Source: Staphylococcus phage S6. Taken from it: a stretch of 64,000 nt of DNA. The DNA lies in sequence record LC680885.1; one strand, written 5' to 3'. This document shows, piece by piece, positions 10,606 to 60,888 of this stretch. Under the pieces are notes generated by a model. The model was not told where the DNA came from, did not search any database, and was given only the letters and a program-made list of their open reading frames with translations. The translations under genes were made by a program, and so were the position numbers. Numbering within the stretch: position 1 is the first letter of the stretch; the number at the start of each line of letters is the position of its first letter.

Positions 10606-10679
10606 ACTTCAAATTCACCCCTAACATGATTTTCTTAATACATATATGTTTCTATCAGATTCATATAGATTAAATTAAA

Positions 10680-12355: not shown

Positions 12356-12395
12356 ATCTCTCCTTATATAAAATAATTTGAAGCTAATATTCTTA

Positions 12396-12441
12396 CTAAC
12401 TTCATTAAAATAATATATATTTATATTATTAATTGAAGTTT
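12396..12441. promoter_or_regulatory. Palindromic divergent promoter element carrying the conserved AT-rich motif on both strands
   Basis: 'aacttcattaaaataatatatatttatattattaattgaagtt' is an imperfect 43-bp palindrome. The + strand copy 12413-12441 ('atatatttatattattaattgaag') and the rc of 12396-12421 ('aaatatatattattttaatgaagtt') both match the motif found upstream of 8 other operons. Sits in the 330-bp AT-rich gap between the minus- and plus-strand blocks. Confidence 0.45.
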
Positions 12442-12701
12442 ATAAATTTTTATTATTAGAGTTTTTCTATGATCCAGAGTATTAATATATTTTATTAATT
12501 AAAAATATATTTATTAATAATATTTATATTAATATTAATTATTAAATTTATAATTACTTACTAATATAAGTAATATATTAATACAAAATTTTAAAAATTT
12601 ATAAATAAAAATTTTATAAAATCTGAATAACCAATTTATATTAATTAAAAAATCAATGACGTTTAAAAATATAATAAATTTGATTGAGGTGTATTAAGAT
12701 A

Positions 12702-16210: not shown

Positions 16211-18439
16211 TTAGTCATCATATTTATCTTTATATTCATAATAACTATCAAATTGAACTTCTAAACCTGAGAAAGCTGAAATGAATCCCATTCTACCTTC
16301 CATATTGATATTTTCAATATCTTTAAAATCAACATCTGGTTTACGATAATTGAAATTCTTATTTTTGTCTATAAATATTCTAATTCTATTTTCATTTTTA
16401 ATAATCTTGATATACTTGTTATTAATGTCTAATGGAACATGATTAGTTAAAAATAATTGTTTTTCTGATTCATCTTGGAATATTTCTTTAGGTTTTCCAA
16501 ATACTTTATCAATTTCATAGAAACCAGTTTTCATTATACGGTCAGGATCTTTCATTACATCTCCATCATTTAGATCAAAGTAAGGAACATCCCAATTTTC
16601 TTGTTGAGAAGCTATCCAAAGCATGTAACCTGAATTGAGTTGAGTGTTATAATCAAATACGATTCCTGCTCCACCAGTTTTATTTTTATTAATTACTTTA
16701 AATGTCATAATATAATTTTTAGGGAATTTAAAGTTTTGACTATACACATAATTTAATGCATCATCATCGAATTTAGTTGTTCCATCTATGAAGCTGATAT
16801 ATCCATAATTACCTAATGACTGTTTAGATAAAGTTTTATTATAAAATCCTGTATAAGTTTGAGTTTCTACAGGGAATGTACCATATGATCTTAATGCAAC
16901 TATCATAGGATTAAAGTATATTCCTGATCTACTCTCATCATAGAAATAATCAGAACCATCTGGATTTTTAAGTGAATAATTATACTCCAACTCAACATTA
17001 TACCAATCTTCTTTAGTTACGATAAATGTATTATCGAATTCTTCATGACTAATTCCAGCTATTTCAAATTCATCTAAACTAACTTGAATTATTTCATTTG
17101 GATCAACGTCATCAACAAAATTTGTTAATTTGACTTCTATTTCCATTCTCTTAATATTTTTCATATTGTACATCATATGTTTAAGATATGATTTTTGACC
17201 TTGAGTATTATAATTTTTATTATTTGAAGGGAATATATTTTCTACTTTTTTAACTTTACCTGTATTTGATGTTAATGTGATATCATAAACTAACTTAGCT
17301 GTAGGATGATTATTATCTTTAAAGTTAGTTGAATATCCCATATTAAAAGCAAAGAAATCATAATTTAATAAACGTTTAATATTCATTCTAGGATTTTCAT
17401 TTTCATCATCTAAAGTTATTTTAACAAATGATGCAGAATTTTCATCTTCTTTATCAGATTTACTTAAAATATCTCCTTTAACTTCATATAAACCGGTTTC
17501 TTGATTAAAACTTACTGAAGATAATCTTGTTGATTCAAGATTAGAATGACTTACATCTTCATCATTAGCTTTTCTTAAATCAAATATAGCTGTAGGTGCT
17601 TTAAATTGATAGTTCTCTGTAGCATTAATTATATTAAAACCTTTTCGATCTGTTATTTTTAATTTAGATGTACCATTTTGTAAAGGTGCAAATAAATATT
17701 TCTCTCCTGGTTTAAAATACATTTTACCTTGAAATTTACGTGAAAAACCTTTTTTGTAAAATAGATGTGGTAGAGTTTTTAAACCATCGTTATTAAGTGT
17801 AAATGGTTCTACTAAATCTTTATTATCTGTATCAGGTCTATAGAATTTATGCTCATGAACTTCATGTCTTTCTCTTAGATATCTATCAGAAGTGATATTT
17901 TCTAATTTATCTTCAAAATCAGTTTCAGGTACAAACGGTATAATTCTAGGATCGTTATAACCCGGAGTAACTCTACCGGATTTTTCTTCAGTACTTTTCA
18001 TCATGTGTTTAAAAATAGGCTTGGGATTATTTTCAGTGCCTAATATTTCATTTTCTTCATTAATAATCTTATTTAAATCATTAATGACAGTCTCTGGGAA
18101 AATTTTTACAGTATCTGTATTAAATTGATCTACTGTTTGCATATCATTAACAAAAAGTAAAAGATACCAAAGATCAGTAGTTCCATATAGTTCATTAGAT
18201 AGATATTCAGGCCGATAGTGATATGATTTTGATAAGTCATAATCTATTAAATCTCTTTTAAGTACATTTTCATATTTTTTTAGTAATGGTAAACTAAAGA
18301 CAGCTTGTTTTTCAAATAAATACCATTCTGATATATTATTAAGTAATATTTTATTCGTCTTGGAGTATTCTATTTCATCAGACATTTCAGGTACATCATT
18401 TCTACCCATATTGTTATTTCCTACGTCACGAATAAGCAA
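16211..18439 (-). CDS. hypothetical large protein (lone minus-strand gene; beta-rich C-terminal region, possible virion/receptor-binding-type protein)
   Basis: 742-aa ORF. C-terminal 'GGAGIVFDYNTQLNSGYMLWI...GRMGFISAFSGLEVQF' resembles a lectin or jelly-roll fold only weakly. Confidence 0.5.
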   Translation of the reverse strand: MLIRDVGNNNMGRNDVPEMSDEIEYSKTNKILLNNISEWYLFEKQAVFSLPLLKKYENVLKRDLIDYDLSKSYHYRPEYLSNELYGTTDLWYLLLFVNDMQTVDQFNTDTVKIFPETVINDLNKIINEENEILGTENNPKPIFKHMMKSTEEKSGRVTPGYNDPRIIPFVPETDFEDKLENITSDRYLRERHEVHEHKFYRPDTDNKDLVEPFTLNNDGLKTLPHLFYKKGFSRKFQGKMYFKPGEKYLFAPLQNGTSKLKITDRKGFNIINATENYQFKAPTAIFDLRKANDEDVSHSNLESTRLSSVSFNQETGLYEVKGDILSKSDKEDENSASFVKITLDDENENPRMNIKRLLNYDFFAFNMGYSTNFKDNNHPTAKLVYDITLTSNTGKVKKVENIFPSNNKNYNTQGQKSYLKHMMYNMKNIKRMEIEVKLTNFVDDVDPNEIIQVSLDEFEIAGISHEEFDNTFIVTKEDWYNVELEYNYSLKNPDGSDYFYDESRSGIYFNPMIVALRSYGTFPVETQTYTGFYNKTLSKQSLGNYGYISFIDGTTKFDDDALNYVYSQNFKFPKNYIMTFKVINKNKTGGAGIVFDYNTQLNSGYMLWIASQQENWDVPYFDLNDGDVMKDPDRIMKTGFYEIDKVFGKPKEIFQDESEKQLFLTNHVPLDINNKYIKIIKNENRIRIFIDKNKNFNYRKPDVDFKDIENINMEGRMGFISAFSGLEVQFDSYYEYKDKYDD

Positions 18440-18534
18440 AATTATTTCACTTCCATTCTTATTTTGTTATAATAAATGCATGTTAAAGTTCGAATGAGCA
18501 TATTAATAAAAAACTAAAAATTTCAACTAATATT

Positions 18535-18560
18535 TTAAATATATATTATTTTAATGAGAT
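18535..18560 (+). promoter_or_regulatory. Conserved promoter-like motif copy 1 ('ttaaatatatattattttaatgagat')
   Basis: Matches the recurring TTAAATATATATTATAAAAATGAG consensus. Lies 58 nt upstream of the 18618 start. Confidence 0.45.
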
Positions 18561-18617
18561 TGAGATGGAATTAATCTTAATACTCAAAAATAAAAATTTT
18601 TAATTACAAGGAGAGAT

Positions 18618-20168
18618 TTGGATATGGCAAAAGTAAAATACTCACAAACAAAATTATTGGTAAGAGGAGCATTTAGATCAGATGAAATTATCAACGTAGT
18701 TGGTGATGGCGGAATTGGTAAAACACAAATGATGAGAGATATTGCAGAAGAAGATAATATGAACTTCATTACTATCGCTGCAAATAACCTTAAAGAAGGG
18801 GAATTATCTTTACCAATGTTATCACAAAAAGATAATGAAGTTATCTATGCTCCAATGGATAAAATTAAGTTAGCTAATAGTCTTTTTGAGAGATATAAAG
18901 AGTATCAAAGAGAAGGTGGAAAACAATATTCACGTAAAGACCTTTCTTTAAAATCTGTTGATGAATTAAAAGAAATTTATGTGAAATTGACTGGTAAAGA
19001 TGTTGTTGATTATTATGAGGATACTCATGAAAACTATGTTAATAAAGTATTTAACAAAGCTAGAGTTAAAAATGTTAAATATAGTAAAAATGATTTAATG
19101 AAAAAATCATTTAATGAATTAAATGAAATCTTTGTAGAATTAACTGGTAAAGAATTAAGAGATAAAATTGGTAAAGGTTTCTATATCAAAGAAATTTTAG
19201 AAGCAGTTCCAAGACCTTATACTCTATTATTTATTGACGAAATTGGACGTACAGACCAACAAGTACAATCAGAGTTAATGAACTTCTTATTAGAACGTCA
19301 AGTAAATGGTTATCATTTACCACCTAACGTTAAGATTGCATTAGCACAAAACCCATCTTCAGACATGCCAGGATTTGAAGACTCAGAATACGCAGCAACT
19401 TCTATGGATAACGCAGTAAGTTCTCGTATTACATTTGTACACATGGTTCCTGATATTGAAAGTTGGGTAGACTTTGCTACTAAATATAAAGATGGTTCAG
19501 AAAAGCAAAATATTCATCCATCTATTGTTGAGTTCGTAACTGAAAAAGAAAGTACTGAATATTTATTCAGACCTCATAAAGAAGCTGGTAAAGACTTCAA
19601 TGATACTAACCCACGTTCTTGGGAAATGATTTCTAATATGTTATATGTATTAGAAGAAGATGATTTATTTAAATTCTCTAATAGTGAAGAAGAGAAACGT
19701 AAGAAGAAAGATACTTTACAATTCTTCACTGAAGGTAAAATTAATAGTGATTTAGCAAACTTATTTGTTAAATTCTATATTGAAAAACAAGCTAAATTAC
19801 CTCGTCCAAGTGATATTTTATTTGAATATGATAAAGGTAAAATGGTTCCTCGTAAAGAATTAGCTAAACAACACATTGAAGCTATTGAAAGTCAATCAAC
19901 TATTAGACAATTAACATTGAAAACTTCAATGATTAACTATCTTAAAAATAATCCTGATTTAGCTGAAGAACAAGTTATTCAAATTGCTGTAGAAGCTTTA
20001 TTATTAGGTAAAGTTGAAACTAATGCTACACCAATTAGATTAATTTCTAGACTTTCAGAATCTACTGAAGAGTCAGACCAAGAATTATATGAGAAATTCA
20101 CTGATAATGAATTATACAGTGATAAAGCATTTGCATTATACGAACAAATGGTAGGAAGCTTAGGATAA
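18618..20168 (+). CDS. AAA+ ATPase, MoxR-like (AAA_5-type)
   Basis: Walker A 'GDGGIGKTQ', Walker B 'LLFIDEIGRT', sensor 'IALAQNPSS'. An insertion of about 110 aa lies between Walker A and B. AGGAGAG RBS. Confidence 0.65.
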   Translation: MDMAKVKYSQTKLLVRGAFRSDEIINVVGDGGIGKTQMMRDIAEEDNMNFITIAANNLKEGELSLPMLSQKDNEVIYAPMDKIKLANSLFERYKEYQREGGKQYSRKDLSLKSVDELKEIYVKLTGKDVVDYYEDTHENYVNKVFNKARVKNVKYSKNDLMKKSFNELNEIFVELTGKELRDKIGKGFYIKEILEAVPRPYTLLFIDEIGRTDQQVQSELMNFLLERQVNGYHLPPNVKIALAQNPSSDMPGFEDSEYAATSMDNAVSSRITFVHMVPDIESWVDFATKYKDGSEKQNIHPSIVEFVTEKESTEYLFRPHKEAGKDFNDTNPRSWEMISNMLYVLEEDDLFKFSNSEEEKRKKKDTLQFFTEGKINSDLANLFVKFYIEKQAKLPRPSDILFEYDKGKMVPRKELAKQHIEAIESQSTIRQLTLKTSMINYLKNNPDLAEEQVIQIAVEALLLGKVETNATPIRLISRLSESTEESDQELYEKFTDNELYSDKAFALYEQMVGSLG

Positions 20169-22247: not shown

Positions 22248-24311
22248 ATGTTAAAAAAGACTACAGAAAATGAATTAGAAAAGTTATTCAATGTCACTAT
22301 TTATAATGAAGAATTTTCTAATTTAAAACCTATGTATAATAGAAAAGATACTGAAACTAGAACTAAATTAAATGACAATCAAAATTCTAGAGTGTATGAG
22401 AATTTAATAAATTTCATTAATTATTCTAAAGCAGGAATGACACACATGTTTTTAACTCGTTCTAATAAATATAGAGATAAATATATTGATTTTCTAAGAA
22501 ATAGACTTGGTAAGGAAGATTTATTAGATGAGGTTGAATTTGAATATACAGATAGATATTTCAGATCTTTCATATATAATATAGATATAATTAGAAGAAG
22601 TGAATATCAAACACATCAATCTATAGAAAATGACTCTAAATTAGAAGATTCATTCTTATTAAGAAATGGAAATACAAATATAGATAGCTTTAAAACGGAT
22701 AATGGTTTATCTATAGAATTTTTAGATAAAGATGTAAAGAAAGATTTTTTAGATAAGAACAAACAAATTAGTTTAGAATCTTTGCTAGCTATCGATACGA
22801 TGGTGTCTAATTCATTAAGAAAGAAATGGTTAAAATCAATTGAAAAAGAAGAATTACCTGATATGAATATTATATTTAAAGAAGTTCCAGAAGTAGTAAT
22901 TATACTAGCAAACAGTATATATGAAAGATCAAATTTCAAATTATCATATGTAGATAGAAGTGTTATTAATATACACGCAGACGTTTCAGATGTTTTTGAA
23001 TCAATACTAACTTTAACTTCTAATTTTAATTATAAATTAATATTAGATTTAATAGATGAAGATTACTTAAGTAAAAATTTAAATCATTTCAAAGCTTCTG
23101 AATTTTCTTTATCTGACAATAATGACATTGATAATATATTTAGTATAATCGGAATTATTAAAAAACAAACGGACGTTATTAATAAATTTATAGAAAAAAG
23201 CAAATCAGATAATCTAGAAGACAATATTAATTTAATAATTAAAGAAAATGAAATAGATGATGACTTTGGAGAAATATTAAAAGTTTATATTGATAGTGTA
23301 TTATCTAAATTTAGAGAATATATTGAAGATGATACCAATATATTAAAAGATTCATCTAAGGTTTTAATAGGTGAAAATCTATTTGATTTCTTTATGAAAT
23401 TAGATGATCTCGAAATTTTAATGATTAGAAATATATACAGAGTTTTAGATAGTAATGTATATAATCCTGTAATCAGAGATGTTAAAGAATCACAAGAAAA
23501 AGTTATGAATGGAATAGTAGATTATTTTAAAAATAATACTAAAAAATTATCTTTAGATTTATCTAATATCGATATAAGTAGATTGAAAGATAGTTCTTTC
23601 ACATTATTAAACGATTTCATAACAAATGGAGAAGTAAGTAATCTTCGTATGAAACCTAATGAAGCTAATATAGAGTATTTCTATAAATTAAGTGTGGATA
23701 AAGAATTAAACCGTGACATATTAAATAGTAATATACAATATATGAAACAGGAATTATTAAAAGGTTTTAATGATGATTCTAAAATGACTTCGAATGCTAT
23801 TATTGAATTTGATAATTTTAATATTAATTTTGCTGTAATAGAAAATAATTCATATAATAATGAAATAGAAATAATGATGCAAGGAGTTACTTTTAAGAAA
23901 AAATTAACTGATGAGGATATTGCTACTATCTTTTTATATTCACATAAAGAAGTTAGTATATATCAAGACAAAAAATTAGTTATCATGGATAGAAATTATT
24001 TCTCTAGAAGAGGTATAAATAAATTTATAAATAATATGAATAATGTCTTCACTGATTTAGATGGAGAAAGTTTATCTAAATATATGTCTTTAATTTATAA
24101 TTTATTATCTTTATCAGATAATTCTTTTGAGGAAGATAAAGCAATTTATAATACTCTATATTACAATAAATTTGAATATATTAATAAAGAAAATGAGTTA
24201 AAAGTTGATAGTTATATTAATATGATTAATAATAAAGATGTAACAGATGATTTTAAAAAGAAATTTAAAAAGGTAAGATCTAAGTATTTAGTTTCTAGAA
24301 TATTTATTTAA
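22248..24311 (+). CDS. hypothetical protein
   Basis: 687 aa. AAAGGAG RBS. No motif recognised. Confidence 0.55.
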   Translation: MLKKTTENELEKLFNVTIYNEEFSNLKPMYNRKDTETRTKLNDNQNSRVYENLINFINYSKAGMTHMFLTRSNKYRDKYIDFLRNRLGKEDLLDEVEFEYTDRYFRSFIYNIDIIRRSEYQTHQSIENDSKLEDSFLLRNGNTNIDSFKTDNGLSIEFLDKDVKKDFLDKNKQISLESLLAIDTMVSNSLRKKWLKSIEKEELPDMNIIFKEVPEVVIILANSIYERSNFKLSYVDRSVINIHADVSDVFESILTLTSNFNYKLILDLIDEDYLSKNLNHFKASEFSLSDNNDIDNIFSIIGIIKKQTDVINKFIEKSKSDNLEDNINLIIKENEIDDDFGEILKVYIDSVLSKFREYIEDDTNILKDSSKVLIGENLFDFFMKLDDLEILMIRNIYRVLDSNVYNPVIRDVKESQEKVMNGIVDYFKNNTKKLSLDLSNIDISRLKDSSFTLLNDFITNGEVSNLRMKPNEANIEYFYKLSVDKELNRDILNSNIQYMKQELLKGFNDDSKMTSNAIIEFDNFNINFAVIENNSYNNEIEIMMQGVTFKKKLTDEDIATIFLYSHKEVSIYQDKKLVIMDRNYFSRRGINKFINNMNNVFTDLDGESLSKYMSLIYNLLSLSDNSFEEDKAIYNTLYYNKFEYINKENELKVDSYINMINNKDVTDDFKKKFKKVRSKYLVSRIFI

Positions 24312-24333
24312 ATATATATTATATAATTGAGTT
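24308..24333 (+). promoter_or_regulatory. Conserved promoter-like motif copy 2 ('ttaaatatatattatataattgag')
   Basis: Overlaps the stop codon of the 22248-24311 gene. Followed by a hairpin 'aattgagttgg..caactcaatt'. Confidence 0.4.
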
Positions 24334-24383
24334 GGTAATTGAACTTATCAACTCAATTTAATTTTTAATTAATAGGAGATGAA

Positions 24384-30752: not shown

Positions 30753-30774
30753 ATAATTGAATGAGGTATTTATT

Positions 30775-31353
30775 ATGGAAAAATACTATAAATTTAATTT
30801 ATTTGAGTGCATACTAAAAAATATTGGTATGCACTCAGATAAATATGAAAATTTGATAAGTAATATAAATAAAAATTTTACATCTTTATATTTTTATGAC
30901 TATGAGATTAATAATAGTGATATAGATAAATTGATATATGATAACATTCAAAAACAATTAATTGATGATAGTTATTTTTTATTTGAAATCAATAATAAAG
31001 AAGAAAGACTATTAGTTGATTTTGAAAATAACCTTTTATATGATAAATATAATGAGAAAATAGGAATGGTTTCTTTAAATAGGATTACTTCTTCTAGAGT
31101 AAATTTATTTTCAGATTTTGAGAATAAATATAGAGATTTAATATTTATGGAAAAAGAAGATATAAAATATGAAAATTTAATTGATATGGGATTTAATATT
31201 GTTACTACTTTTGAAATTTCTACCGTATGTAAAAATAAAATAAATAATTTTAGTTACTTTGGTTTTGATATTAAAGATAATAAAAATAATCTATTAATTG
31301 AATGTGATGAAAAAGAATTCAAAATTAATAAAGTTAAGAATAATTTTATATAA
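30775..31353 (+). CDS. hypothetical protein (ends ..KVKNNFI, weak family-like tail)
   Basis: ATG at 30775 with TGAGGT 7 nt upstream. The track start 30757 is a TTG. Confidence 0.45.
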   Translation: MEKYYKFNLFECILKNIGMHSDKYENLISNINKNFTSLYFYDYEINNSDIDKLIYDNIQKQLIDDSYFLFEINNKEERLLVDFENNLLYDKYNEKIGMVSLNRITSSRVNLFSDFENKYRDLIFMEKEDIKYENLIDMGFNIVTTFEISTVCKNKINNFSYFGFDIKDNKNNLLIECDEKEFKINKVKNNFI

Positions 31354-31411
31354 TTAGAAAAGTTAAAAGATAAATTTATTAATGATTATGAATAAGGAGA
31401 CTTTGAATTTT

Positions 31412-32131
31412 ATGTATAAAGAAGATGAAATGAATACAGGTCATATAGTTGCTGATTGTGATGAAGTTTTAGTAAATATTTCCCCTAAGATAGTTCAATT
31501 AATGCATGAAGATTTTGATTATTACAGTCAATTCTTTAGACTATCTCCAGAGTATAATTACGGTACTCATTACAATACAGTTCTTAATCGTCCTGAATAT
31601 TATATTGACCAATGGTTAGTAAGAAAAGATGTTTATGAAAGATTTTCTGAAGATGAAGTTAATGAAGCTAGAAATAGGTTACAAAATGAAATTATATTTA
31701 AAAAAGATTTATACGATACATTAGAACCAACAAATTTAGCTAAAAGTTTATCATATACAATCAATACACCTTTAATGAATAGATTATCAATTGTAACTAA
31801 AACTTCTGATAATAACTTAAAATCTAAAGAGAAATTTTTGAAAACTTTATTTAGAGGAAGTATGGAAAAGGTTGATATTTATTATCTTGAATCAGATGAA
31901 AAGAAATCAGATGTAATTAATACATTAGGTTATGTTACTAGAATATATGAGGATGAAGTTAGTAATATTAAAGACATTATTATGAATTGTGATAATGTTA
32001 TGCAAACTGGCATCGATATTCCTTCATTAGGATATAACCAAAAATTAGATGAAGCAACTATTATGAAAGCTAAAGAAAAAGAAATAGACTTAAATTATTT
32101 TAGTTATATGAGTAATAGTTTAGTTAATTAA
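31412..32131 (+). CDS. HAD-superfamily 5'(3')-deoxyribonucleotidase-like protein (possible dNMP phosphohydrolase)
   Basis: N-terminal 'GHIVADCDEVLVNI' matches the DxDx(V/T) phosphatase motif I (compare 'IAVDMDGVLADF' of NT5C-family enzymes). Start is uncertain (ATG 31382/31388/31412; AAGGAG at 31394). Confidence 0.4.
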   Translation: MYKEDEMNTGHIVADCDEVLVNISPKIVQLMHEDFDYYSQFFRLSPEYNYGTHYNTVLNRPEYYIDQWLVRKDVYERFSEDEVNEARNRLQNEIIFKKDLYDTLEPTNLAKSLSYTINTPLMNRLSIVTKTSDNNLKSKEKFLKTLFRGSMEKVDIYYLESDEKKSDVINTLGYVTRIYEDEVSNIKDIIMNCDNVMQTGIDIPSLGYNQKLDEATIMKAKEKEIDLNYFSYMSNSLVN

Positions 32132-32139
32132 TAATTATT

Positions 32140-32192
32140 GCCATGTTAAGTTTATAGCTTAACATGGCTTTTATATATTTATTTTTTTTTTT
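32140..32192 (+). terminator. Rho-independent terminator ('gccatgttaag..cttaacatggc' + long T-run)
   Basis: 11-bp stem, 7-nt loop, followed by 'ttttatatatttattttttttttt'. Confidence 0.7.
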
Positions 32193-32221: not shown

Positions 32222-33733
32222 ATGAAAATAGATATGATCAACGTTGATCAAATTATTACAGCCTATGAAGCTAAAGAAGTTACCAATCCTATTTTCTTTG
32301 ATTCAGGAACTTTACCTAAAGAAGACGGTTTATTCTCATATGAAATATTTGGTTTAATAGGTACTGATGAAAGAAAGAACAATGTGGGGTGGATTAATTT
32401 AGGTGGTAAATACTTAAATCCTGTAGCGTATAAAGCTATGAAAGAATTAGATAAGAATATAGATTTATGTATTCAAGGATCTGATTACTTTAAAATTGAA
32501 AAAGGACAATTAGTTCCAGATGAAAATGGTGAAACTGGATTAAATTTCCTATACGATAATTATGAAAATCTTAAATTTAGAAAAAATGATTCTCGTATCC
32601 GAAATGAAAAAATTGATATGCTTAAAAATACTCCTAAAGATAGAATATTTACAGATAAATGGCTTGTAATACCTGCTTTCTATCGTGACTTTAACCCTAA
32701 TGAAACTTCAGGAGAAATTCAAGATACTGAAGAAATAAATGATATGTATGCGAGTATTTTAAGATCTGTAGATTCAATTAGTTTTAACTCATTTGATTTT
32801 GTAGCTAATACGACTAAATATAATATTCAAAATAAATTATTTGAAATATACGTTAAATTAACTTCAGGTGAACTATCAGGTAAAACTGGTATGATGCAAA
32901 GAAATATTTTAGGTAAGACAGTAGATAATAGTACTCGTTCAGTTATTTCATCACCTAAAATCAATTCAAATAAATGGAATGAAATGCAAATTGAATTCGG
33001 TCAATTAGGTGTTCCATTAACTCAATTAGTAACATTGTTCTTACCTTTCTTTAGTAAATATATTATAGACTTTATTGAAATTCATAAAGATGCTTTCCAA
33101 ACTGCTACTGGAACTGATGAAAAGGAATTAACATTAGAAGAAGTATATGAACAATTTGATGATAAATCTATTAAGAATATGTTAGAATACTTTATTAAAG
33201 ACCCTAATGAAAGATTTAGTCCTATATATGTAAATGATAGACAAGGTAAACGTCATAAAGTTAAATTATTTGAAAATACTTTAGGTAGAACTTTTACTGT
33301 AATTGATTTACTTTATATAGCTGCTACAGAAATATGTGAAGATAAGTATGTGGTTTATTCAAGATATCCGATTGAAAATTTCTTGAATGTGGCTCCTGCT
33401 AAAATTAAAATACTAACTACAGTTGATACAATTCCAGAAATTACTTTAGATGATATTGTACTTAAAGATTATCCTAAAGTTGTTCATGAATATCCTGTTG
33501 ATGAAGATGTATTTATAGATACTGCTATTATACACAACAGTTATGCCGGAGCACTTGGTGCAGATTTTGACGGTGATATGATCTCTATTAGATCTTTATG
33601 GACAGTTGAAGCTAATAAAGAAGCTAATAAACTTCTTAATAAGAAAACTAACTATCTAAACTACACTGGTAATTCAGTACGTAATTTGGGTAACGAATCG
33701 GTACAAGCTTTATATTCATTAACTAAAGAATAA
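32222..33733 (+). CDS. Multisubunit RNA polymerase beta-prime-like subunit, N-terminal fragment (catalytic NADFDGD region)
   Basis: 'KEDGLFSYEIFGL' aligns to the beta-prime N-terminus 'ERDGLFCARIFGP'. 'LVIPAFYRDFNP...EINDMYASILR' aligns to 'LPVLPPDLRPL..DLNDLYRRVI'. 'HNSYAGALGADFDGDMISI' aligns to 'AAYNADFDGDQMAVH', and 'NESVQALYSLT' to 'QDVVLGLYYMT'. No zinc-finger Cys. The ORF ends before the bridge helix. Confidence 0.7.
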   Translation: MKIDMINVDQIITAYEAKEVTNPIFFDSGTLPKEDGLFSYEIFGLIGTDERKNNVGWINLGGKYLNPVAYKAMKELDKNIDLCIQGSDYFKIEKGQLVPDENGETGLNFLYDNYENLKFRKNDSRIRNEKIDMLKNTPKDRIFTDKWLVIPAFYRDFNPNETSGEIQDTEEINDMYASILRSVDSISFNSFDFVANTTKYNIQNKLFEIYVKLTSGELSGKTGMMQRNILGKTVDNSTRSVISSPKINSNKWNEMQIEFGQLGVPLTQLVTLFLPFFSKYIIDFIEIHKDAFQTATGTDEKELTLEEVYEQFDDKSIKNMLEYFIKDPNERFSPIYVNDRQGKRHKVKLFENTLGRTFTVIDLLYIAATEICEDKYVVYSRYPIENFLNVAPAKIKILTTVDTIPEITLDDIVLKDYPKVVHEYPVDEDVFIDTAIIHNSYAGALGADFDGDMISIRSLWTVEANKEANKLLNKKTNYLNYTGNSVRNLGNESVQALYSLTKE

Positions 33734-33776: not shown

Positions 33777-33808
33777 TATTATACTGCAAAAACGTATCTA
33801 ATGATATT

Positions 33809-33833
33809 TTAAATTTATATTATAATTATGAAG
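33809..33833 (+). promoter_or_regulatory. Conserved promoter-like motif copy 3 ('ttaaatttatattataattatgaag')
   Basis: Matches the consensus. Lies 45 nt upstream of the 33878 start. Confidence 0.4.
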
Positions 33834-33877
33834 TTGATAATTATTATCAACTAATTTAAATAAAAGGATGATTTAAT

Positions 33878-34177
33878 ATGAATGAAATTAAAATAATGGA
33901 TACTGAACTACTACAGGAAGCTGTAGAAGGAAAAGAGAATAACGGTGGAGGTTACGAACATACTCGTACCGTTTTCGAATTCCAAGGAAAACAAGGAGTT
34001 TTCGAAGACACTTCTTGTGGTGATTTCGGTAGCAGATTCTTCATGGAATGGGATGGAAAAATGGCTATGTGGGGAAGTATGATTGATGAAGAACTCGAAT
34101 ACAGTGAATTCGATGAACAAGAACAATCAGAACTTCTAAAGCATTTTAGAGTTCCTGTTTTTGAAGAAACAATCTAG
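33878..34177 (+). CDS. small acidic protein (locally GC-richer moron-like gene)
   Basis: 99 aa. Codon usage is visibly richer in G/C-ending codons (GAATTC, TTCGAA, GGTGGAGG) than its neighbours. Flanked by terminator hairpins on both sides and its own copy of the promoter motif. Confidence 0.5.
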   Translation: MNEIKIMDTELLQEAVEGKENNGGGYEHTRTVFEFQGKQGVFEDTSCGDFGSRFFMEWDGKMAMWGSMIDEELEYSEFDEQEQSELLKHFRVPVFEETI

Positions 34178-34211
34178 GACATTAATGTCCTAGATTTCTT
34201 TTATTTTTTTT
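34174..34211 (+). terminator. Rho-independent terminator (perfect 20-nt palindrome 'ctaggacattaatgtcctag' + T-run)
   Basis: Palindrome overlaps the stop codon and is followed by 'atttcttttattttttttc'. Confidence 0.7.
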
Positions 34212-34233
34212 CTAAAAATATTCTATTTTATGA

Positions 34234-34260
34234 TTAAATATATATTATAAAAATAGATGC
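34234..34260 (+). promoter_or_regulatory. Conserved promoter-like motif copy 4 ('ttaaatatatattataaaaatagatgc')
   Basis: Exact core TTAAATATATATTATAAAAAT, located just after the terminator. Confidence 0.45.
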
Positions 34261-36882: not shown

Positions 36883-36891
36883 AAATATGTA

Positions 36892-36917
36892 TTAAATATA
36901 TATTATAAAAATGAGAT
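36892..36917 (+). promoter_or_regulatory. Conserved promoter-like motif copy 5 ('ttaaatatatattataaaaatgagat') followed by hairpin 36913-36943
   Basis: Exact consensus. A 13-bp hairpin 'gagataatgaatt..aattcattatctc' overlaps its 3' end. Confidence 0.45.
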
Positions 36918-36975
36918 AATGAATTAATATAATTCATTATCTCTATATTAATTTAATTAGGAGAGTGAAAAAGAT

Positions 36976-41488: not shown

Positions 41489-41890
41489 ATGCTATCAGAA
41501 TACAGATTAAATTCAAGTAAAGAAGACATTAAACAGCTATTAAGAGATTATGGTTTTAAAAAAGATTCTTATACTAAAGCTTTATTATATAGAAAACGTG
41601 TAACTGACCCAAATGATATTTTATTTATAGTGGCCGAAGTAGTTATTGAAACTAATTCAGATCTAGTTAAATTAAATTACTATGATAGTAAACATAATAG
41701 ATTTAATCCTTCTAATGAATCACCAGAAGTTCAAAAAGGTTTAAGTATATTAGAAGATATGAAAGAAAAAGAATTATTAATTGAACCAGAGTTAACTCAA
41801 AATGAAGAAGAAAAAGAAGTTCTTGATAGACTTAAAGAACAACGTGAAGAAATGGAAAATGGTCAAGTATCACCCAATTCTGAAAATTAG
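41489..41890 (+). CDS. hypothetical protein
   Basis: 133 aa. AAAGGATG RBS. Confidence 0.5.
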   Translation: MLSEYRLNSSKEDIKQLLRDYGFKKDSYTKALLYRKRVTDPNDILFIVAEVVIETNSDLVKLNYYDSKHNRFNPSNESPEVQKGLSILEDMKEKELLIEPELTQNEEEKEVLDRLKEQREEMENGQVSPNSEN

Positions 41891-41891
41891 A

Positions 41892-41917
41892 ATAAATATA
41901 TATTATAAAAATGTTAT
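41892..41917 (+). promoter_or_regulatory. Conserved promoter-like motif copy 6 ('ataaatatatattataaaaatgttat') + hairpin 'tcccaatacta..tagtattggga'
   Basis: Begins 2 nt after the stop of the 41489 gene. Hairpin at about 41917-41945. AAAGGAG RBS of the 41971 gene follows. Confidence 0.45.
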
Positions 41918-41970
41918 CCCAATACTATTAAATTAGTATTGGGATTATTATAATAAAAGGAGTTAAGTAA

Positions 41971-51853: not shown

Positions 51854-51917
51854 TGTGAAAAAATACTTATAAATTAAGAGAAAATTCTAAAAAGTATTGA
51901 AAAGGAGTGTTTTGAAT

Positions 51918-54362
51918 TTGGCTGATGAGAATAAAACTCAGAGAAGTATAAATAATCTCAACAGAGATATGGTCAGAGGATTAGGCGATGAAGAAAATCC
52001 TAAGAACTTATCTGACAATATAAATGATTTTGATGATAGGCTAAAAAAGATAAGACGTAAAAGTAATCATGGTAATAGTAATGGTGATATTCTATCTTTA
52101 GCATCTAAAGTAAACGGTAAAAGTAGAAATGTTAGAAAATCTAATACCGGTGATGATAAAAAAGATTTCATTAAAGATTTTATAGAAGAGAATATTGAAA
52201 ATCAAGATTTTTCATCTGAAATTGCTAGGGTGTCTAGATACGATGACTATAGAATTATAGATAAATTTATACCTGAAATATCAACAAGTATTGATGTATT
52301 CGCTACTTCTATTATTGCACCTGACGATACTTCTAAATTATCATTGATGTATCGTTATGGTGATACAAATAATAAAGATGAATCAGAAAATAAAGAAGTT
52401 TTAAATGAATTAGATAGAATTGTAAAGAAATACAATTTGGATAATTTAACATATACTTCTATCCGTGAAGGTTTATTATTAGGAGACGTATTCTATATCA
52501 TTAAAGATACTAAATCTGATTTTGAAGAAATACTTAATGAGAATGATGATGTATTAGGAAGAGAAACAAGAGAAGAACAAAAAGTGATTAATGAATCATT
52601 TATAGATCAGAATCTTAAAGAATCTGATTTAGATATTGTCATTAATGAATTTAATAATCAATTTGAAAAACCTATCAAAGATGAAGAGCAGTTAAATGAA
52701 CAAAGAGCTAATTTTAAAAATGAGATACTAAAGAGTATTAATGAAAATGTATCTTTCTTTGAAAATTCTTCTGAATTACTATCTGATATAGGTAAATACA
52801 AAGGTTCTAATGATTTACAAGCATTTTTAAATAAAGCAGATGACAAAAATAAATCTAGTAAATTAAAATCTGGTTCTGTATATTTCAGATCTGTTGAACC
52901 TGAAGATATGATTAAATTAGAAATTGATGGTATGTGTATTGGTTATCTTTATATTGAACCTGATTCTGGAACTGATTTAAGAGGTGGAGCTAATCCTCTA
53001 TTATCTGCTATGAATAATTTAATGGGAGACGGTTATCAGAAGCAAGGTCAAACAGGATCATTCTCAGGTGGTATGGGAGTTACTAACTTAGATCCTGTTA
53101 CTGGTAATGTTGCAGGAAATAATATGTCTAGTAATTCCAAAAATCCTAATTCAGGAATGAATGCTACATCTGGATCATATTATGAAAATGGAAATACTGT
53201 TATGGCGTATCAAGGTTTAGTTGATGTTATAGTTAAAGGTATATCTCAAAAAATCAATATGGACTTCATTAATAAAAATGATTCATTTAAAGATATCATA
53301 TATAGATTAATACGTAAGAATTATATTATTGAAAATGGTATTAAAATGACTTTCTTAGAAGCTGATGAAGTATTTCATCACAAATTAGACAGTCAAAAAA
53401 CTTATGGAGTTTCTAAACTTAATAAATCATTATTCTTTGCTAAATTATATTTAAGTACATTAATAACTACAATGATGGTTAAATTAAATCAATCAAGAGA
53501 TAGACGTGTATTTAGAGTTAATGCAGGTTTAGATGATGATTATGAGGGAACTGTAGAAGAAATAATTCGTAATGTAAGACAAAATGAAATGTCTACAGGT
53601 TTATTTGGTGATGGAACTTCAGTTCAAACATTGTTCAATCAAGTAGGTAACTTAGAAAACATGTACATTCCTCAAAATAAAGAAGGTACTTCACCTTTAG
53701 AAATAGATACAATTTCTGGTATCCAAGTTGATATTAATGATGAATTCTTAGAATGGCTTAAGAAATCAGTTATATCAGGTACAGGAGTTCCTTTAAACTA
53801 TATTGATGCTGAAACTGAAACTGATTATGCACGTTCATTATCAATGCAGAATAATAACTTTGTAAGACGTGTAGTTAACTATCAAAAATCTTTCGGGGAA
53901 TTCTATACTGAAGTTTTAAGAAAGCTTTACTATCTAGAAAATGTAAATAGCAAAGATAAAAAGTATAATGAAGAACTAAATAATAGACTACAAGAAATTG
54001 AAGCTTACTTCCCAGCACCTGTATTCTTAAACTTAGGAAACCTTAATGAAGAAGTTGGAGCTGTTACACAAATGATAGACTTCTTAGTTCCTTTATACAC
54101 TTCAGAAGCTACTGGTGACGAAGAAGAAGATGATAATGAAAAATTAAAACGTCTATTCCGTAAAGAATTAGTTCAACAAGAATTCATGTCTAATTTAGAT
54201 TATGATAGATACGAAGACATTATTAACAATATTAAAGATGAAATAAATAAAGATAAAAAGAAAAATGACATGGTAAATAGCAATAATGCTGATGAAGACG
54301 ATTTATCTTCTTCAGATGATTCTGAAAATAATTCAGACGATAATTTTGAGGATGATTTCTAA
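51918..54362 (+). CDS. hypothetical large protein with acidic C-terminal tail
   Basis: ORF to 54362. TTG at 51918 with AAAGGAG 10 nt upstream (track start 51897 is a GTG inside the RBS). Gly/Asn-rich insert 'GGMGVTNLDPVTGNVAGNNMSSNSKNPNSGMN'. C-terminus 'DEDDLSSSDDSENNSDDNFEDDF'. Confidence 0.5.
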   Translation: MADENKTQRSINNLNRDMVRGLGDEENPKNLSDNINDFDDRLKKIRRKSNHGNSNGDILSLASKVNGKSRNVRKSNTGDDKKDFIKDFIEENIENQDFSSEIARVSRYDDYRIIDKFIPEISTSIDVFATSIIAPDDTSKLSLMYRYGDTNNKDESENKEVLNELDRIVKKYNLDNLTYTSIREGLLLGDVFYIIKDTKSDFEEILNENDDVLGRETREEQKVINESFIDQNLKESDLDIVINEFNNQFEKPIKDEEQLNEQRANFKNEILKSINENVSFFENSSELLSDIGKYKGSNDLQAFLNKADDKNKSSKLKSGSVYFRSVEPEDMIKLEIDGMCIGYLYIEPDSGTDLRGGANPLLSAMNNLMGDGYQKQGQTGSFSGGMGVTNLDPVTGNVAGNNMSSNSKNPNSGMNATSGSYYENGNTVMAYQGLVDVIVKGISQKINMDFINKNDSFKDIIYRLIRKNYIIENGIKMTFLEADEVFHHKLDSQKTYGVSKLNKSLFFAKLYLSTLITTMMVKLNQSRDRRVFRVNAGLDDDYEGTVEEIIRNVRQNEMSTGLFGDGTSVQTLFNQVGNLENMYIPQNKEGTSPLEIDTISGIQVDINDEFLEWLKKSVISGTGVPLNYIDAETETDYARSLSMQNNNFVRRVVNYQKSFGEFYTEVLRKLYYLENVNSKDKKYNEELNNRLQEIEAYFPAPVFLNLGNLNEEVGAVTQMIDFLVPLYTSEATGDEEEDDNEKLKRLFRKELVQQEFMSNLDYDRYEDIINNIKDEINKDKKKNDMVNSNNADEDDLSSSDDSENNSDDNFEDDF

Positions 54363-54370
54363 TATTAACA

Positions 54371-54406
54371 TTTGAATAACGGATTAAATACAATTCGTTA
54401 TTCAAA
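54371..54406 (+). terminator. Hairpin terminator ('tttgaataacg..cgttattcaaa')
   Basis: 11-bp stem, 14-nt loop. Its 3' arm overlaps promoter-motif copy 7. Confidence 0.55.
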
Positions 54407-54426
54407 TTTATATTATATAAGTGTAG
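54402..54426 (+). promoter_or_regulatory. Conserved promoter-like motif copy 7 ('tcaaatttatattatataagtgtag')
   Basis: Variant of the consensus. Lies 37 nt upstream of the 54463 start. Confidence 0.4.
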
Positions 54427-60218: not shown

Positions 60219-60818
60219 ATGACTGAAGAAAAATTACCTGCATTAAATATTATTGCTTCTGCAGTAACTACTACACCTAAGACTAATACAGAGTTTATTA
60301 ATATGACATTTATGGTGGATAATCCTAAATTTAAAGATATGTATTTAGAATTTTCTGACATTGATTTATCAGAAGTATTTAAAAACGAAATGCTTAAAGA
60401 AGCTTATGAAAACGGTCAATTAGCAGAGTATACTAAAATTGATCAGACTTTAGATAATTACAATATTAGAATGATTAAAGATGATACAGTTATACAAATA
60501 CAACGTATTAGAGATTACTTTGAAGAATTATCTGAATATGCTGATAAATTAATATTCTGGGTTGATGAGATTACTTTATGGTCTCAGTTAATAGAATTAG
60601 TTTATGGAGGTTCATCAGATAACACATATGAATTACCTTCATATATTGACTTCCAACCTATTGACATAAAATCAGTAGTTAGAATGTCAGCTATAAGAGA
60701 TAATGATTATTCATATGCAGAAGAATTAATGGGAACAAGTGAATCACTAACAGATTCATCTTTATCAATTTCATCATTCTTATTAACATTCATTAAAAAT
60801 GCTGGAATATTAAAATAA
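60219..60818 (+). CDS. hypothetical protein
   Basis: 199 aa. Start overlaps the upstream stop (TAAATG). Confidence 0.5.
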   Translation: MTEEKLPALNIIASAVTTTPKTNTEFINMTFMVDNPKFKDMYLEFSDIDLSEVFKNEMLKEAYENGQLAEYTKIDQTLDNYNIRMIKDDTVIQIQRIRDYFEELSEYADKLIFWVDEITLWSQLIELVYGGSSDNTYELPSYIDFQPIDIKSVVRMSAIRDNDYSYAEELMGTSESLTDSSLSISSFLLTFIKNAGILK

Positions 60819-60822
60819 ATTT

Positions 60823-60847
60823 TTAAATATATATTATAAAGATGTAT
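60823..60847 (+). promoter_or_regulatory. Conserved promoter-like motif copy 8 ('ttaaatatatattataaagatgtat') + palindrome 'tattaataatagaatattattaata'
   Basis: Begins 5 nt after the stop of the 60219 gene. GGAGAG RBS of the 60889 gene lies downstream. Confidence 0.45.
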
Positions 60848-60888
60848 TAATAATAGAATATTATTAATATAAATAATTTAAATGGAGA

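What the first reader, a model, noticed from the sequence alone, without database searches (positions are those of the whole stretch)
34234..34260. Conserved ~25-nt AT-rich intergenic motif TTAAATATATATTATAAAAATGAG present at >=9 loci: candidate phage-RNAP promoter
Copies on the plus strand are at 18535, 24308, 33809, 34234, 36892, 41892, 54402 and 60823, plus 12413. A minus-strand copy is at 12396-12421, within the palindrome. Most begin within a few nt of an upstream stop codon or terminator. Several are immediately followed by a dissimilar GC-rich hairpin (24334, 36913, 41917, 60848) before the RBS. The core 'TATATTAT' plus A-tract does not look like a sigma-A -35/-10 pair. Given the phage-encoded multisubunit RNAP, it is a good candidate for a phage-polymerase-specific promoter. 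This resembles the AT-rich 'TATATTAC'-type early promoters reported for phiKZ-like phages. The motif-plus-hairpin pairing could be a 5' stabiliser or an RNase III site.
Basis: seen in the sequence. Interest (0 to 1): 0.6.

Follow-up and report, generated by a model that had tools for sequence, protein, structure and literature searches.

The report
Jumbo-phage early promoters with hairpin leaders
The repeated AT-rich motif is the already described early promoter read by the RNA polymerase that AR9-like jumbo phages carry in their virions; what looks undescribed is that in the Staphylococcus phages most copies are followed by a hairpin starting at the predicted first transcribed base.

Summary
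The window comes from a Staphylococcus jumbo phage, 98.5% identical to vB_SauM-UFV_DC4 over the 6 kb compared and in the MarsHill/Madawaska clade related to Bacillus phage AR9.

The motif is real. AAATWTATATTAT-N6-G occurs 8 times against 0.04 expected, and the 13-mer 9 times. All nine copies lie in the 5.9% non-coding fraction and point at the downstream gene.

It matches the mapped AR9 early (virion RNA polymerase) promoter AAATATATATTAT-(6N)-G+1. The same motif was already reported upstream of 29 MarsHill genes. The tenth copy (12413, + strand) is a chance-level match.

The hairpin observation is also real and systematic. I placed the start site by the AR9 rule and pooled the window with the rest of UFV_DC4. 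Of 26 sites, 18 have a stable hairpin starting within +1..+5, and 14 start exactly at +1. The figure is 8.7% for random windows and 0 of 17 for AR9. The stems covary between related phages, contain G·U pairs on the sense strand, and lack U-tracts.

My best reading is a clade-specific 5'-terminal stem-loop that stabilises early mRNAs. That function is inferred, not shown.

The parts
12380..12433 (-). Early promoter plus leader hairpin for the gene at 12355-11438 (hypothetical, Madawaska gp089 homologue). A at -30 = 12433. 13-mer = 12422-12410. Predicted TSS G = 12403. Hairpin +1..+24 = 12403-12380.
   Evidence: Exact consensus match. The 13-mer and G+1 are invariant in 6 phages, while the stem shows one compensatory pair and three wobble changes. 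Coordinates.
18526..18585 (+). Early promoter (A at -30 = 18526; 13-mer 18537-18549; TSS G 18556) plus hairpin +1..+30 (18556-18585). It lies upstream of the AAA ATPase gene at 18618-20168.
   Evidence: The SA1 orthologue, ORF169, is in the early RNA-seq cluster (PMC9414953; ORF numbers mapped).
24299..24354 (+). Early promoter (13-mer 24310-24322, overlapping the stop codon of the upstream gene; TSS G 24329) plus hairpin +1..+26 (24329-24354).
   Evidence: Complementarity continues 4 bp upstream, into -4..-1.
33800..33852 (+). Early promoter, variant AAATTTATATTAT (33811-33823; TSS G 33830), plus hairpin +3..+23 (33832-33852).
   Evidence: (three compensated pairs versus SA1). The whole promoter-to-RBS cassette is duplicated elsewhere in the UFV_DC4 genome.
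34225..34255 (+). Early promoter at the reported coordinate (13-mer 34236-34248). The +1 position, 34255, is A, with G at +2. There is no leader hairpin and the leader is 80 nt. A canonical terminator (34171-34196 plus a T-run) lies just upstream.
   Evidence: The A at +1 is conserved in Madawaska, MarsHill and SA1.
36883..36943 (+). Early promoter (13-mer 36894-36906; TSS G 36913) plus a 14-bp hairpin +1..+31 (36913-36943).
   Evidence: Orthologues keep the stem through G·U changes and loop replacement. A related hairpin sequence recurs at three other promoters in UFV_DC4.
41883..41945 (+). Early promoter (13-mer 41894-41906; TSS G 41913) plus a 12-bp hairpin +4..+33 (41916-41945).
   Evidence: (C-G to U-A compensatory change in SA1). 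The Machias record annotates the orthologous hairpin as a 'terminator'.
54393..54423 (+). Early promoter, variant AAATTTATATTAT (54404-54416; TSS G 54423), without a leader hairpin. It lies upstream of the non-virion RNA polymerase beta' gene at 54463-56376.
   Evidence: The SA1 orthologue ORF201 is a 'middle' gene. An AR9-late-like AACA-N6-TA sits at 54367.
60814..60870 (+). Early promoter (13-mer 60825-60837; TSS G 60844) plus an all-A/U/G·U hairpin +1..+27 (60844-60870).
   Evidence: The hairpin is kept in SA1 with a changed stem, weakened in LY01 and lost in PB50.

Best explanation
These are early promoters of a Staphylococcus AR9-like jumbo phage, read by the multisubunit RNA polymerase that the virion injects with the (uracil-containing) DNA.

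The recognition element spans about -30 to +1:
- a conserved A at -30
- TT at -21/-20
- AAATWTATATTAT at -19..-7
- an A-rich 6-nt spacer ending in T at -1
- initiation at G+1

Each promoter heads an early or continuously expressed operon, including the gene for a subunit of the second (non-virion) polymerase. Promoter identity: confidence about 0.9. It rests on sequence identity to the mapped AR9 promoters; no 5' ends have been mapped in this phage.

In the Staphylococcus clade most of these transcripts would begin with a 6-14-bp stem-loop whose first pair involves +1..+5. I infer that this is a 5'-terminal stabiliser. By leaving no single-stranded 5' end, it would hinder RNA pyrophosphohydrolase (RppH) and the 5'-exonuclease RNase J1/J2, and so prolong early mRNA life. 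This part is inference, with confidence about 0.5.
For: Promoter:
- AAATWTATATTAT-N6-G occurs 8 times against 0.04 expected.
- All 9 exact 13-mers are intergenic and co-oriented with the downstream gene.
- The sequence is identical to the AR9 consensus AAATATATATTAT-(6N)-G+1, mapped by dRNA-seq. AR9 early transcripts accumulate without protein synthesis (PMC5312081).
- The motif was already reported for MarsHill.
- The phage encodes virion and non-virion polymerase subunits. A virion polymerase subunit was detected in UFV_DC4 virions (PMC10638138).
- The 13-mer and G+1 are invariant across orthologous sites in 8 phages, while the flanks drift.
- Pooling the window with the rest of UFV_DC4 gives 26 sites: G+1 in 25, T-1 in 25, A-30 in 24. 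AR9 has A at -30 in 16 of 17 annotated promoters.
- SA1 RNA-seq classes fit. The ATPase gene behind promoter 18537 is early. The virion polymerase beta' gene and the RecD-like gene, which lack a good motif, are late. The non-virion beta' gene is middle.

Hairpin:
- 18 of 26 leaders have a hairpin starting within +1..+5 with dG of -5 kcal/mol or lower, and 14 start exactly at +1. The figures for random G-start windows are 8.7% and 4.5%; for AR9 the figure is 0 of 17 (Fisher p = 1e-13 and 3e-6).
- BpSp also lacks the hairpins.
- Orthologues show compensatory and wobble changes.
- The sense-strand fold is more stable than the antisense fold in 28 of 32 cases, with 1 reversed and 3 ties.
- The 8 nt after the stem hold on average 3.05 T and 4.8 A, so there is no U-tract.
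- By my reading of the gene tables, 4 of the 5 promoters in divergent regions, which have no upstream co-directional gene to terminate, still carry the hairpin.
- In B. subtilis a hairpin at or near the 5' end stabilises mRNAs, and RppH needs at least 2 unpaired 5' nucleotides (PMC3997798).
Against: - No transcript 5' ends, rifampicin tests or in vitro transcription exist for any Staphylococcus jumbo phage. The TSS is transferred from AR9.
- The TATTAT-N6-G geometry is also that of a sigma-A -10 element.
- 8 of 26 promoters lack the hairpin, including the one at the reported coordinate and the one driving the non-virion polymerase gene. AR9 and BpSp manage without hairpins although Bacillus also has RNase J1, so the hairpin is dispensable for the promoter and its benefit is unclear.
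- In two ortholog groups the palindrome runs 4-8 bp upstream of +1.
- One or two hairpins meet a loose terminator rule. The Machias annotators called one a terminator.
- Some promoter-plus-hairpin units are paralogous copies, so part of the exact +1 register may be inherited rather than independently selected.
- G·U asymmetry would also fit a hairpin in the non-template DNA strand.
Confidence: 0.85

Rival explanations
1. The hairpins are intrinsic terminators or insulators for the upstream operon. The promoter sits between the stop codon and the terminator, and the hairpin ends read-through transcripts rather than protecting new ones.
For: - Four window promoters start within 11 nt of, or overlap, the upstream stop codon, with no other terminator in between.
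- A loose consensus scan flags 24325-24358 and 36913-36943 as terminator-like on the + strand.
- The Machias record annotates the 41916-type hairpin as a terminator.
- At 24310 and at SA1 16343 the stem extends upstream of +1, which matters only in read-through RNA.
Against: - A terminator there would also abort transcripts started 1-30 nt upstream.
- The 8 nt after the stems average 3.05 T and 4.8 A, and none has 5 or more T. Canonical terminators in the same window do have T-runs (34171-34196, 32140-32168).
- By my reading of the gene tables, 4 of 5 promoters in divergent intergenic regions, with nothing co-directional upstream, still carry the hairpin.
- Stems are registered to +1 at single-nucleotide precision: 14 of 26 against 4.5% at random.
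Confidence: 0.12
2. The motif is a host sigma-A promoter (a -10-like TATTAT, 6 nt, then the start site), so that early genes are read by S. aureus RNA polymerase.
For: TATTAT differs from TATAAT at one position, and the distance to the conserved G equals the sigma-A -10 to +1 distance (sequence). The AR9 authors could not fully exclude a minor role for the host polymerase.
Against: - No -35 hexamer is conserved at 16-18 nt. Conservation instead covers -21..-13 and a single A at -30.
- None of the strongest 60 sigma-70-type calls is a + strand call at a motif site, and such calls are at chance level overall: 208 against 196 expected.
- The identical motif in AR9 fires without protein synthesis, and AR9 can grow with host transcription blocked.
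- The DNA is presumed to be uracil-substituted.
Confidence: 0.04
3. The hairpin is a processing or recognition site: for RNase III, or for a phage or host RNA-binding or DNA-binding protein. Alternatively it is a non-template-strand DNA hairpin that helps promoter opening or escape by the virion polymerase.
For: The hairpins lie at a fixed place relative to the promoter. A related stem sequence, GAG[GA]TAATG...CATTA[CT]CTCTAATAT, recurs at four promoters. G·U asymmetry fits non-template DNA as well as RNA, because the DNA carries uracil.
Against: - Stem sequences are mostly unrelated between promoters: only 3 pairs reach 60% identity or more. This argues against a sequence-specific protein.
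- Stems have 6-14 pairs (mean 10.7), shorter than the roughly two helical turns typical of RNase III substrates (established knowledge).
- The same promoter works in AR9 without any hairpin, so the hairpin is not needed for recognition.
- There is no Rfam match in the window.
Confidence: 0.1

Closest known systems
Early (virion RNA polymerase) promoters of Bacillus phage AR9 / PBS1, consensus AAATATATATTAT-(6N)-G+1 (Lavysh et al. 2017, PMC5312081)
   Same: The 13-mer is identical, as are the 6-nt spacer and G at +1. Both are intergenic, upstream of early and continuously expressed genes. Both share a conserved A at -30. Both phages are related and encode split beta/beta' virion and non-virion polymerases.
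   Different: AR9 leaders are short (about 30-40 nt in most of those sampled) and unstructured: 0 of 17 have a 5'-proximal hairpin, against 18 of 26 here. AR9 sites tolerate more variation in positions -19..-14. The TSS is mapped in AR9 and only inferred here.
Predicted early promoter of Staphylococcus phage MarsHill (Korn et al., bioRxiv 10.1101/2020.12.14.422802, Fig. 5)
   Same: It is the same clade and the same motif, found by MEME upstream of 29 genes. I count 26 exact copies in the window plus the rest of UFV_DC4.
   Different: That paper does not mention leader hairpins: the words hairpin, stem-loop and terminator are absent from its text. The UFV_DC4 paper did no promoter analysis. Whether the Korn logo shows the -30 A could not be checked.
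phiKZ-group early promoters (core TATATTAC; OBP/N1M2 ...ATATTAT...GTG)
   Same: They have an AT-rich core centred near -10 and a start site a few nt downstream, are read by an injected multisubunit polymerase, and drive the non-virion polymerase genes.
   Different: The flanking consensus differs. The hosts are Gram-negative and the phages are only distantly related (about 30% identity in the polymerase subunit).
5'-terminal stem-loop mRNA stabilisers of Gram-positive bacteria (references cited in review PMC3997798 include the B. subtilis aprE leader)
   Same: A hairpin sits at or within a few nt of the 5' end, upstream of a strong RBS. The stated requirement of RppH for at least 2 unpaired 5' nucleotides matches stems that start at +1.
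   Different: Here the feature is attached systematically to one promoter class of a virus, and no half-life has been measured.
Intrinsic (rho-independent) terminators
   Same: Both are stable stem-loops in intergenic DNA after a stop codon.
   Different: There is no U-tract and the tails are A-rich. The stems lie downstream of a promoter and are registered to its +1.

Membership tests
AR9-type early (virion RNAP) promoter | Consensus AAATATATATTAT centred near -13 | tested here: met
   There are 9 exact matches to AAATWTATATTAT in the window and 26 in the window plus the rest of UFV_DC4.
AR9-type early (virion RNAP) promoter | Conserved G start site exactly 6 nt after the 13-mer | tested here: met
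   G is at that position in 8 of 9 window sites and 25 of 26 pooled sites. This shows sequence conservation only, not a mapped 5' end.
AR9-type early (virion RNAP) promoter | Intergenic, co-oriented with and upstream of early or continuously expressed genes, and absent before virion-protein genes | tested here: met
   All 9 sites are intergenic and co-oriented. None precedes the tape-measure, baseplate, portal or virion-polymerase beta' genes. The SA1 RNA-seq classes for ORF169, 159, 177 and 201 agree.
AR9-type early (virion RNAP) promoter | Phage encodes a virion-packaged multisubunit RNA polymerase | tested here: met
   The virion RNAP beta' gene is at 32222-33733 by homology to annotated relatives. 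A virion RNAP subunit was detected in UFV_DC4 virions.
AR9-type early (virion RNAP) promoter | Primary transcript 5' ends at +1 appear within minutes, independent of protein synthesis and of host RNA polymerase | not testable with these tools
   This needs dRNA-seq or primer extension with chloramphenicol and rifampicin. No such data were found for Staphylococcus jumbo phages.
5'-terminal stem-loop mRNA stabiliser | Stable hairpin within a few nt of the transcript 5' end | tested here: met
   18 of 26 leaders qualify and 14 start at +1, relative to the inferred TSS. Covariation and G·U pairs support an RNA-level structure.
5'-terminal stem-loop mRNA stabiliser | Removing or displacing the hairpin shortens mRNA half-life, dependent on RNase J/RppH | not testable with these tools
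   This is an experimental test.
Intrinsic terminator | G+C-rich stem immediately followed by a U-tract | tested here: not met
   The tails average 3.05 T in 8 nt, none has 5 or more T in the first 8 nt, and most start with A. Only 1-2 pass a looser rule.
Sigma-A (sigma-70 type) promoter | -35 TTGACA-like hexamer 16-18 nt upstream of a TATAAT-like -10 | tested here: not met
   No -35 hexamer is conserved; only the A at -30 is conserved. None of the strongest 60 sigma-70-type calls is a + strand call at a motif site.
Rfam RNA families | Match at gathering score | tested here: not met
   The whole window, both strands, gives 0 matches.

The most novel reading that the evidence does not exclude
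The Staphylococcus branch of AR9-like jumbo phages has added a transcript-start-registered 5' stem-loop to most virion-polymerase early promoters. This forms a promoter-plus-leader module that can be copied between genes. It would shield early phage mRNAs from 5'-end-dependent decay (RppH, RNase J1/J2). It could also mark phage RNA as protected while host mRNA is degraded. The Bacillus relatives AR9 and BpSp use the same promoter without it.
Probability: 0.45. Interest if true: 0.5.

Novelty: new member of a known kind. Interest (0 to 1): 0.3.

Why it matters
The promoter itself adds little. It confirms that this phage uses the AR9-type early transcription programme, and it gives nine start sites for annotating early operons, including the one for the non-virion polymerase beta' gene.

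Two details could be useful to people working on jumbo-phage transcription:
- The conserved positions outside the published 13-mer (A at -30, TT at -21/-20, T at -1) are shared in part with AR9. They define the footprint that any future structure of the sigma-less virion polymerase must explain.
- The start-registered leader hairpins are present in the Staphylococcus clade and absent in the Bacillus relatives. They offer a simple, testable case of a virus tuning mRNA stability at the level of a whole promoter class.

The hairpins also give independent, if indirect, support for initiation at the conserved G.

Tried and rejected
- Loose motif matches. With 2 mismatches the 14-mer core is at chance (28 found, 28.2 expected). 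With 1 mismatch the 13-mer is at chance (17 found, 12.8 expected). Only exact copies count, and the copies at 12413(+) and 54430(-) were dropped.
- IMG/VR scan for the 14-mer plus G.
- Rfam scan of the window: no matches.
- The AR9 genome paper (PMC13189113) is not held. I therefore could not check whether the -30 A or any leader structure was described there.
- SA1 RNA-seq supplements contain no per-gene table. Only the few ORFs named in the text could be mapped, so hairpin versus expression class could not be tested.
- Scan for the AR9 late-promoter motif AACA-N6-T[AG]. It gave 3 hits in the gaps searched, which total about 3 kb; at 0.48 motifs per kb per strand I estimate about 1.4 would arise by chance. 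This is suggestive only.
- Sigma-70 reading: considered and rejected (and the position matrix).
- Folding with upstream sequence included. Global folds in this AT-rich DNA are noisy. I used them only to ask whether stems extend upstream of +1: they clearly do in two ortholog groups, and by one to a few weak A-U pairs in two more.

Full report
**What the window is.** A 6-kb stretch around the finding is 98.5% identical to Staphylococcus phage vB_SauM-UFV_DC4. It is 83-97% identical to eight other Staphylococcus jumbo phages: PALS_2, Madawaska, MarsHill, PB50, LY01, SA1, Machias and AH12. G+C content across the window is 19-36%. The annotated relatives place the following genes in the window:
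- a tape-measure gene (4627-10605, - strand)
- a baseplate wedge gene (16211-18439, - strand)
- the N-terminal virion RNA polymerase beta' gene (32222-33733)
- the portal gene (51897-54362)
- a non-virion RNA polymerase beta' gene (54463-56376)

A tblastn search with the last gene also hits PBS1 and the phiKZ non-virion subunit gp074. These phages are relatives of Bacillus phage AR9 and are presumed to carry uracil in place of thymine.

- The pattern AAATWTATATTAT-N6-G matches exactly 8 times against 0.04 expected.
- A ninth exact 13-mer, at the reported coordinate (34236-34248), has A at the +1 position.
- All nine copies lie in the 5.9% of the span that is non-coding. All point at the downstream gene, and the G lies 40-80 nt before the ORF start.
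- An unsupervised count of 9-mers shared among the 26 intergenic gaps returns only fragments of this motif at the top.

Relaxed matches are at chance level. That copy is a by-product of the self-complementary TATATA core of the - strand promoter. It is broken in SA1, Machias and AH12, while the - strand copy is invariant. The gene it would serve, a RecD-like helicase, is a late gene in SA1.

**What the motif is.** Differential RNA-seq and primer extension defined 41 AR9 early promoters with the consensus AAATATATATTAT-(6N)-G+1. These are active 5 min after infection and do not need protein synthesis, so they are assigned to the injected virion polymerase (PMC5312081). The window motif is that sequence, with the same spacer length and the same G. 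Korn et al. had already found the motif by MEME upstream of 29 MarsHill genes and called it the early promoter. The UFV_DC4 paper did not look at promoters, but it did detect a virion polymerase subunit in virions.

**Conservation.** I collected orthologous regions from seven relatives. The 13-mer and G+1 are invariant within ortholog groups, while the flanks and spacers drift. Pooling the window with the remaining 200 kb of UFV_DC4 gives 26 exact sites, close to the 29 reported for MarsHill. Among them G+1 occurs in 25, T-1 in 25, T-20 in 24 and A-30 in 24. The A at -30 is also present in 16 of 17 annotated AR9 promoters in the first 100 kb of that genome. The recognised element therefore spans about -30 to +1, wider than the published 13-mer. 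I could not check whether the published logos already show this.

**Fit with expression data.** SA1 ORF numbers map onto its GenBank protein accessions (ORF n = QPI16918+n, checked on six named genes).
- The ATPase gene behind the 18537-type promoter is in the early cluster.
- The virion polymerase beta' gene, which has a terminator but no early motif upstream, is late.
- The non-virion beta' gene is 'middle'. It has an early motif and also an AR9-late-like AACA-N6-TA 37 nt further upstream. In AR9 such tandem promoters give continuous expression.

**The hairpins.** I placed +1 by the AR9 rule. Seven of the nine window leaders then begin with a strong hairpin whose first paired base is +1 (five sites), +3 or +4. 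The two exceptions are 34236 and 54404.

In the 26-site set, 18 have a first helix starting within +1..+5 with dG of -5 kcal/mol or lower, and 14 start exactly at +1. In 3000 random G-start windows of the same genome the figures are 8.7% and 4.5% (Fisher p = 1e-13). For AR9 the figure is 0 of 17 (p = 3e-6). Median dG of the first 45 nt is -9.15 kcal/mol here against -2.0 in AR9. Bacillus pumilus phage BpSp has the promoter but not the hairpin.

Stem sequences differ between promoters. Within ortholog groups they keep pairing through compensatory and wobble changes:
- one G-C to A-U change plus three wobble changes at the 12403 site
- C-G to U-A at 41916
- three compensated pairs at 33832

Among 32 strong hairpins, the sense strand folds better than the antisense in 28, worse in 1 and equally in 3, because of G·U pairs. 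Orthologues are not independent, so these counts overstate the sample size.

**What the hairpins do.** They are not canonical terminators. The 8 nt after the stem average 3.05 T and 4.8 A, and none has 5 or more T. Genuine terminators in the window carry T-runs. A terminator there would also kill the promoter's own transcripts. By my reading of the gene tables, four of the five promoters in divergent regions, which have nothing upstream to terminate, still have the hairpin.

With 6-14 pairs (mean 10.7) the stems are short for RNase III. Their sequence diversity argues against a specific binding protein. AR9 shows that the promoter does not need them.

A hairpin at or near the 5' end is an established mRNA stabiliser in B. 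subtilis, and RppH needs at least two unpaired 5' nucleotides (PMC3997798). The best-supported mechanism is therefore protection of early mRNAs from 5'-end-dependent decay. This is inference.

**Caveats on the hairpins.**
- The TSS is not mapped in these phages.
- Eight of 26 promoters lack the hairpin.
- In two ortholog groups complementarity runs 4-8 bp upstream of +1.
- One or two stems meet a loose terminator rule.
- Some promoter-plus-leader units are paralogous. These are the 33811 cassette and the GAG[GA]TAATG stem family, so part of the +1 register may be inherited.
- A non-template DNA hairpin would show the same strand asymmetry.

**Verdict.** The promoter is an AR9-type virion-polymerase early promoter already described for sister phages, so the finding is ordinary in kind. 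The start-registered leader hairpin and the -30 position were not mentioned in the papers I could search. They are modest refinements, and both are testable.

Noticed in passing
window 33811-33875 vs L131 (UFV_DC4 record position about 98253, - strand): A promoter-to-RBS cassette of about 65 nt (variant 13-mer, spacer, hairpin, A-rich tail, GGATG) is 93% identical at two loci. Their upstream flanks and downstream coding sequences are unrelated, so a regulatory module has been copied between genes.
   Followed up: partly
window 36913-36943; UFV_DC4 record about 147447, 175940, 181990 (L132/L133): The related leader stem GAG[GA]TAATG...CATTA[CT]CTC, followed by TAATAT, recurs at four different early promoters. 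This suggests a family of paralogous leaders.
   Followed up: no
window 10639-10650 (-), 18473-18484 (-), 54367-54378 (+): The AR9 late-promoter consensus AACA-N6-TA occurs upstream of the tape-measure and baseplate-wedge genes. It also occurs 37 nt upstream of the early promoter of the non-virion RNAP beta' gene, a possible early-plus-late tandem as in AR9 continuously expressed genes. From the motif density I estimate about 1.4 chance hits, against 3 seen.
   Followed up: partly
window 54374-54403: A hairpin (GAATAACG ... CGTTATTC, 14-nt loop) lies directly upstream of the 54404 promoter and after the portal gene. It keeps pairing through a compensatory change in PB50 and SA1 (AATG/CATT). 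It has no T-run and its function is unknown.
   Followed up: no
window 32222-33733: The virion RNAP beta' N-terminal gene is one uninterrupted ORF here, as in SA1. In Madawaska and MarsHill it is split by an intron carrying a homing endonuclease gene, and in Machias it is joined from three pieces.
   Followed up: no
window 30757-32131 vs L001 29880-32638: Gene content differs from Madawaska and MarsHill in this stretch. An early promoter with a strong leader hairpin present there (L001 30515) has no counterpart in the window. In the corresponding stretch SA1 has a 5'(3')-deoxyribonucleotidase gene with its own promoter (L124 20793).
   Followed up: no
window about 12523: The UFV_DC4 GenBank record starts at about window position 12523, inside the divergent intergenic region that holds the - strand promoter. 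The window therefore spans that record's arbitrary ends.
   Followed up: partly
L131 1144-1237 (UFV_DC4 record 52143-52236): A tRNA-Phe gene is annotated in UFV_DC4. By the coordinate offset it falls at about window 64.7 kb, just beyond the window's end, so it is not in the window.
   Followed up: no
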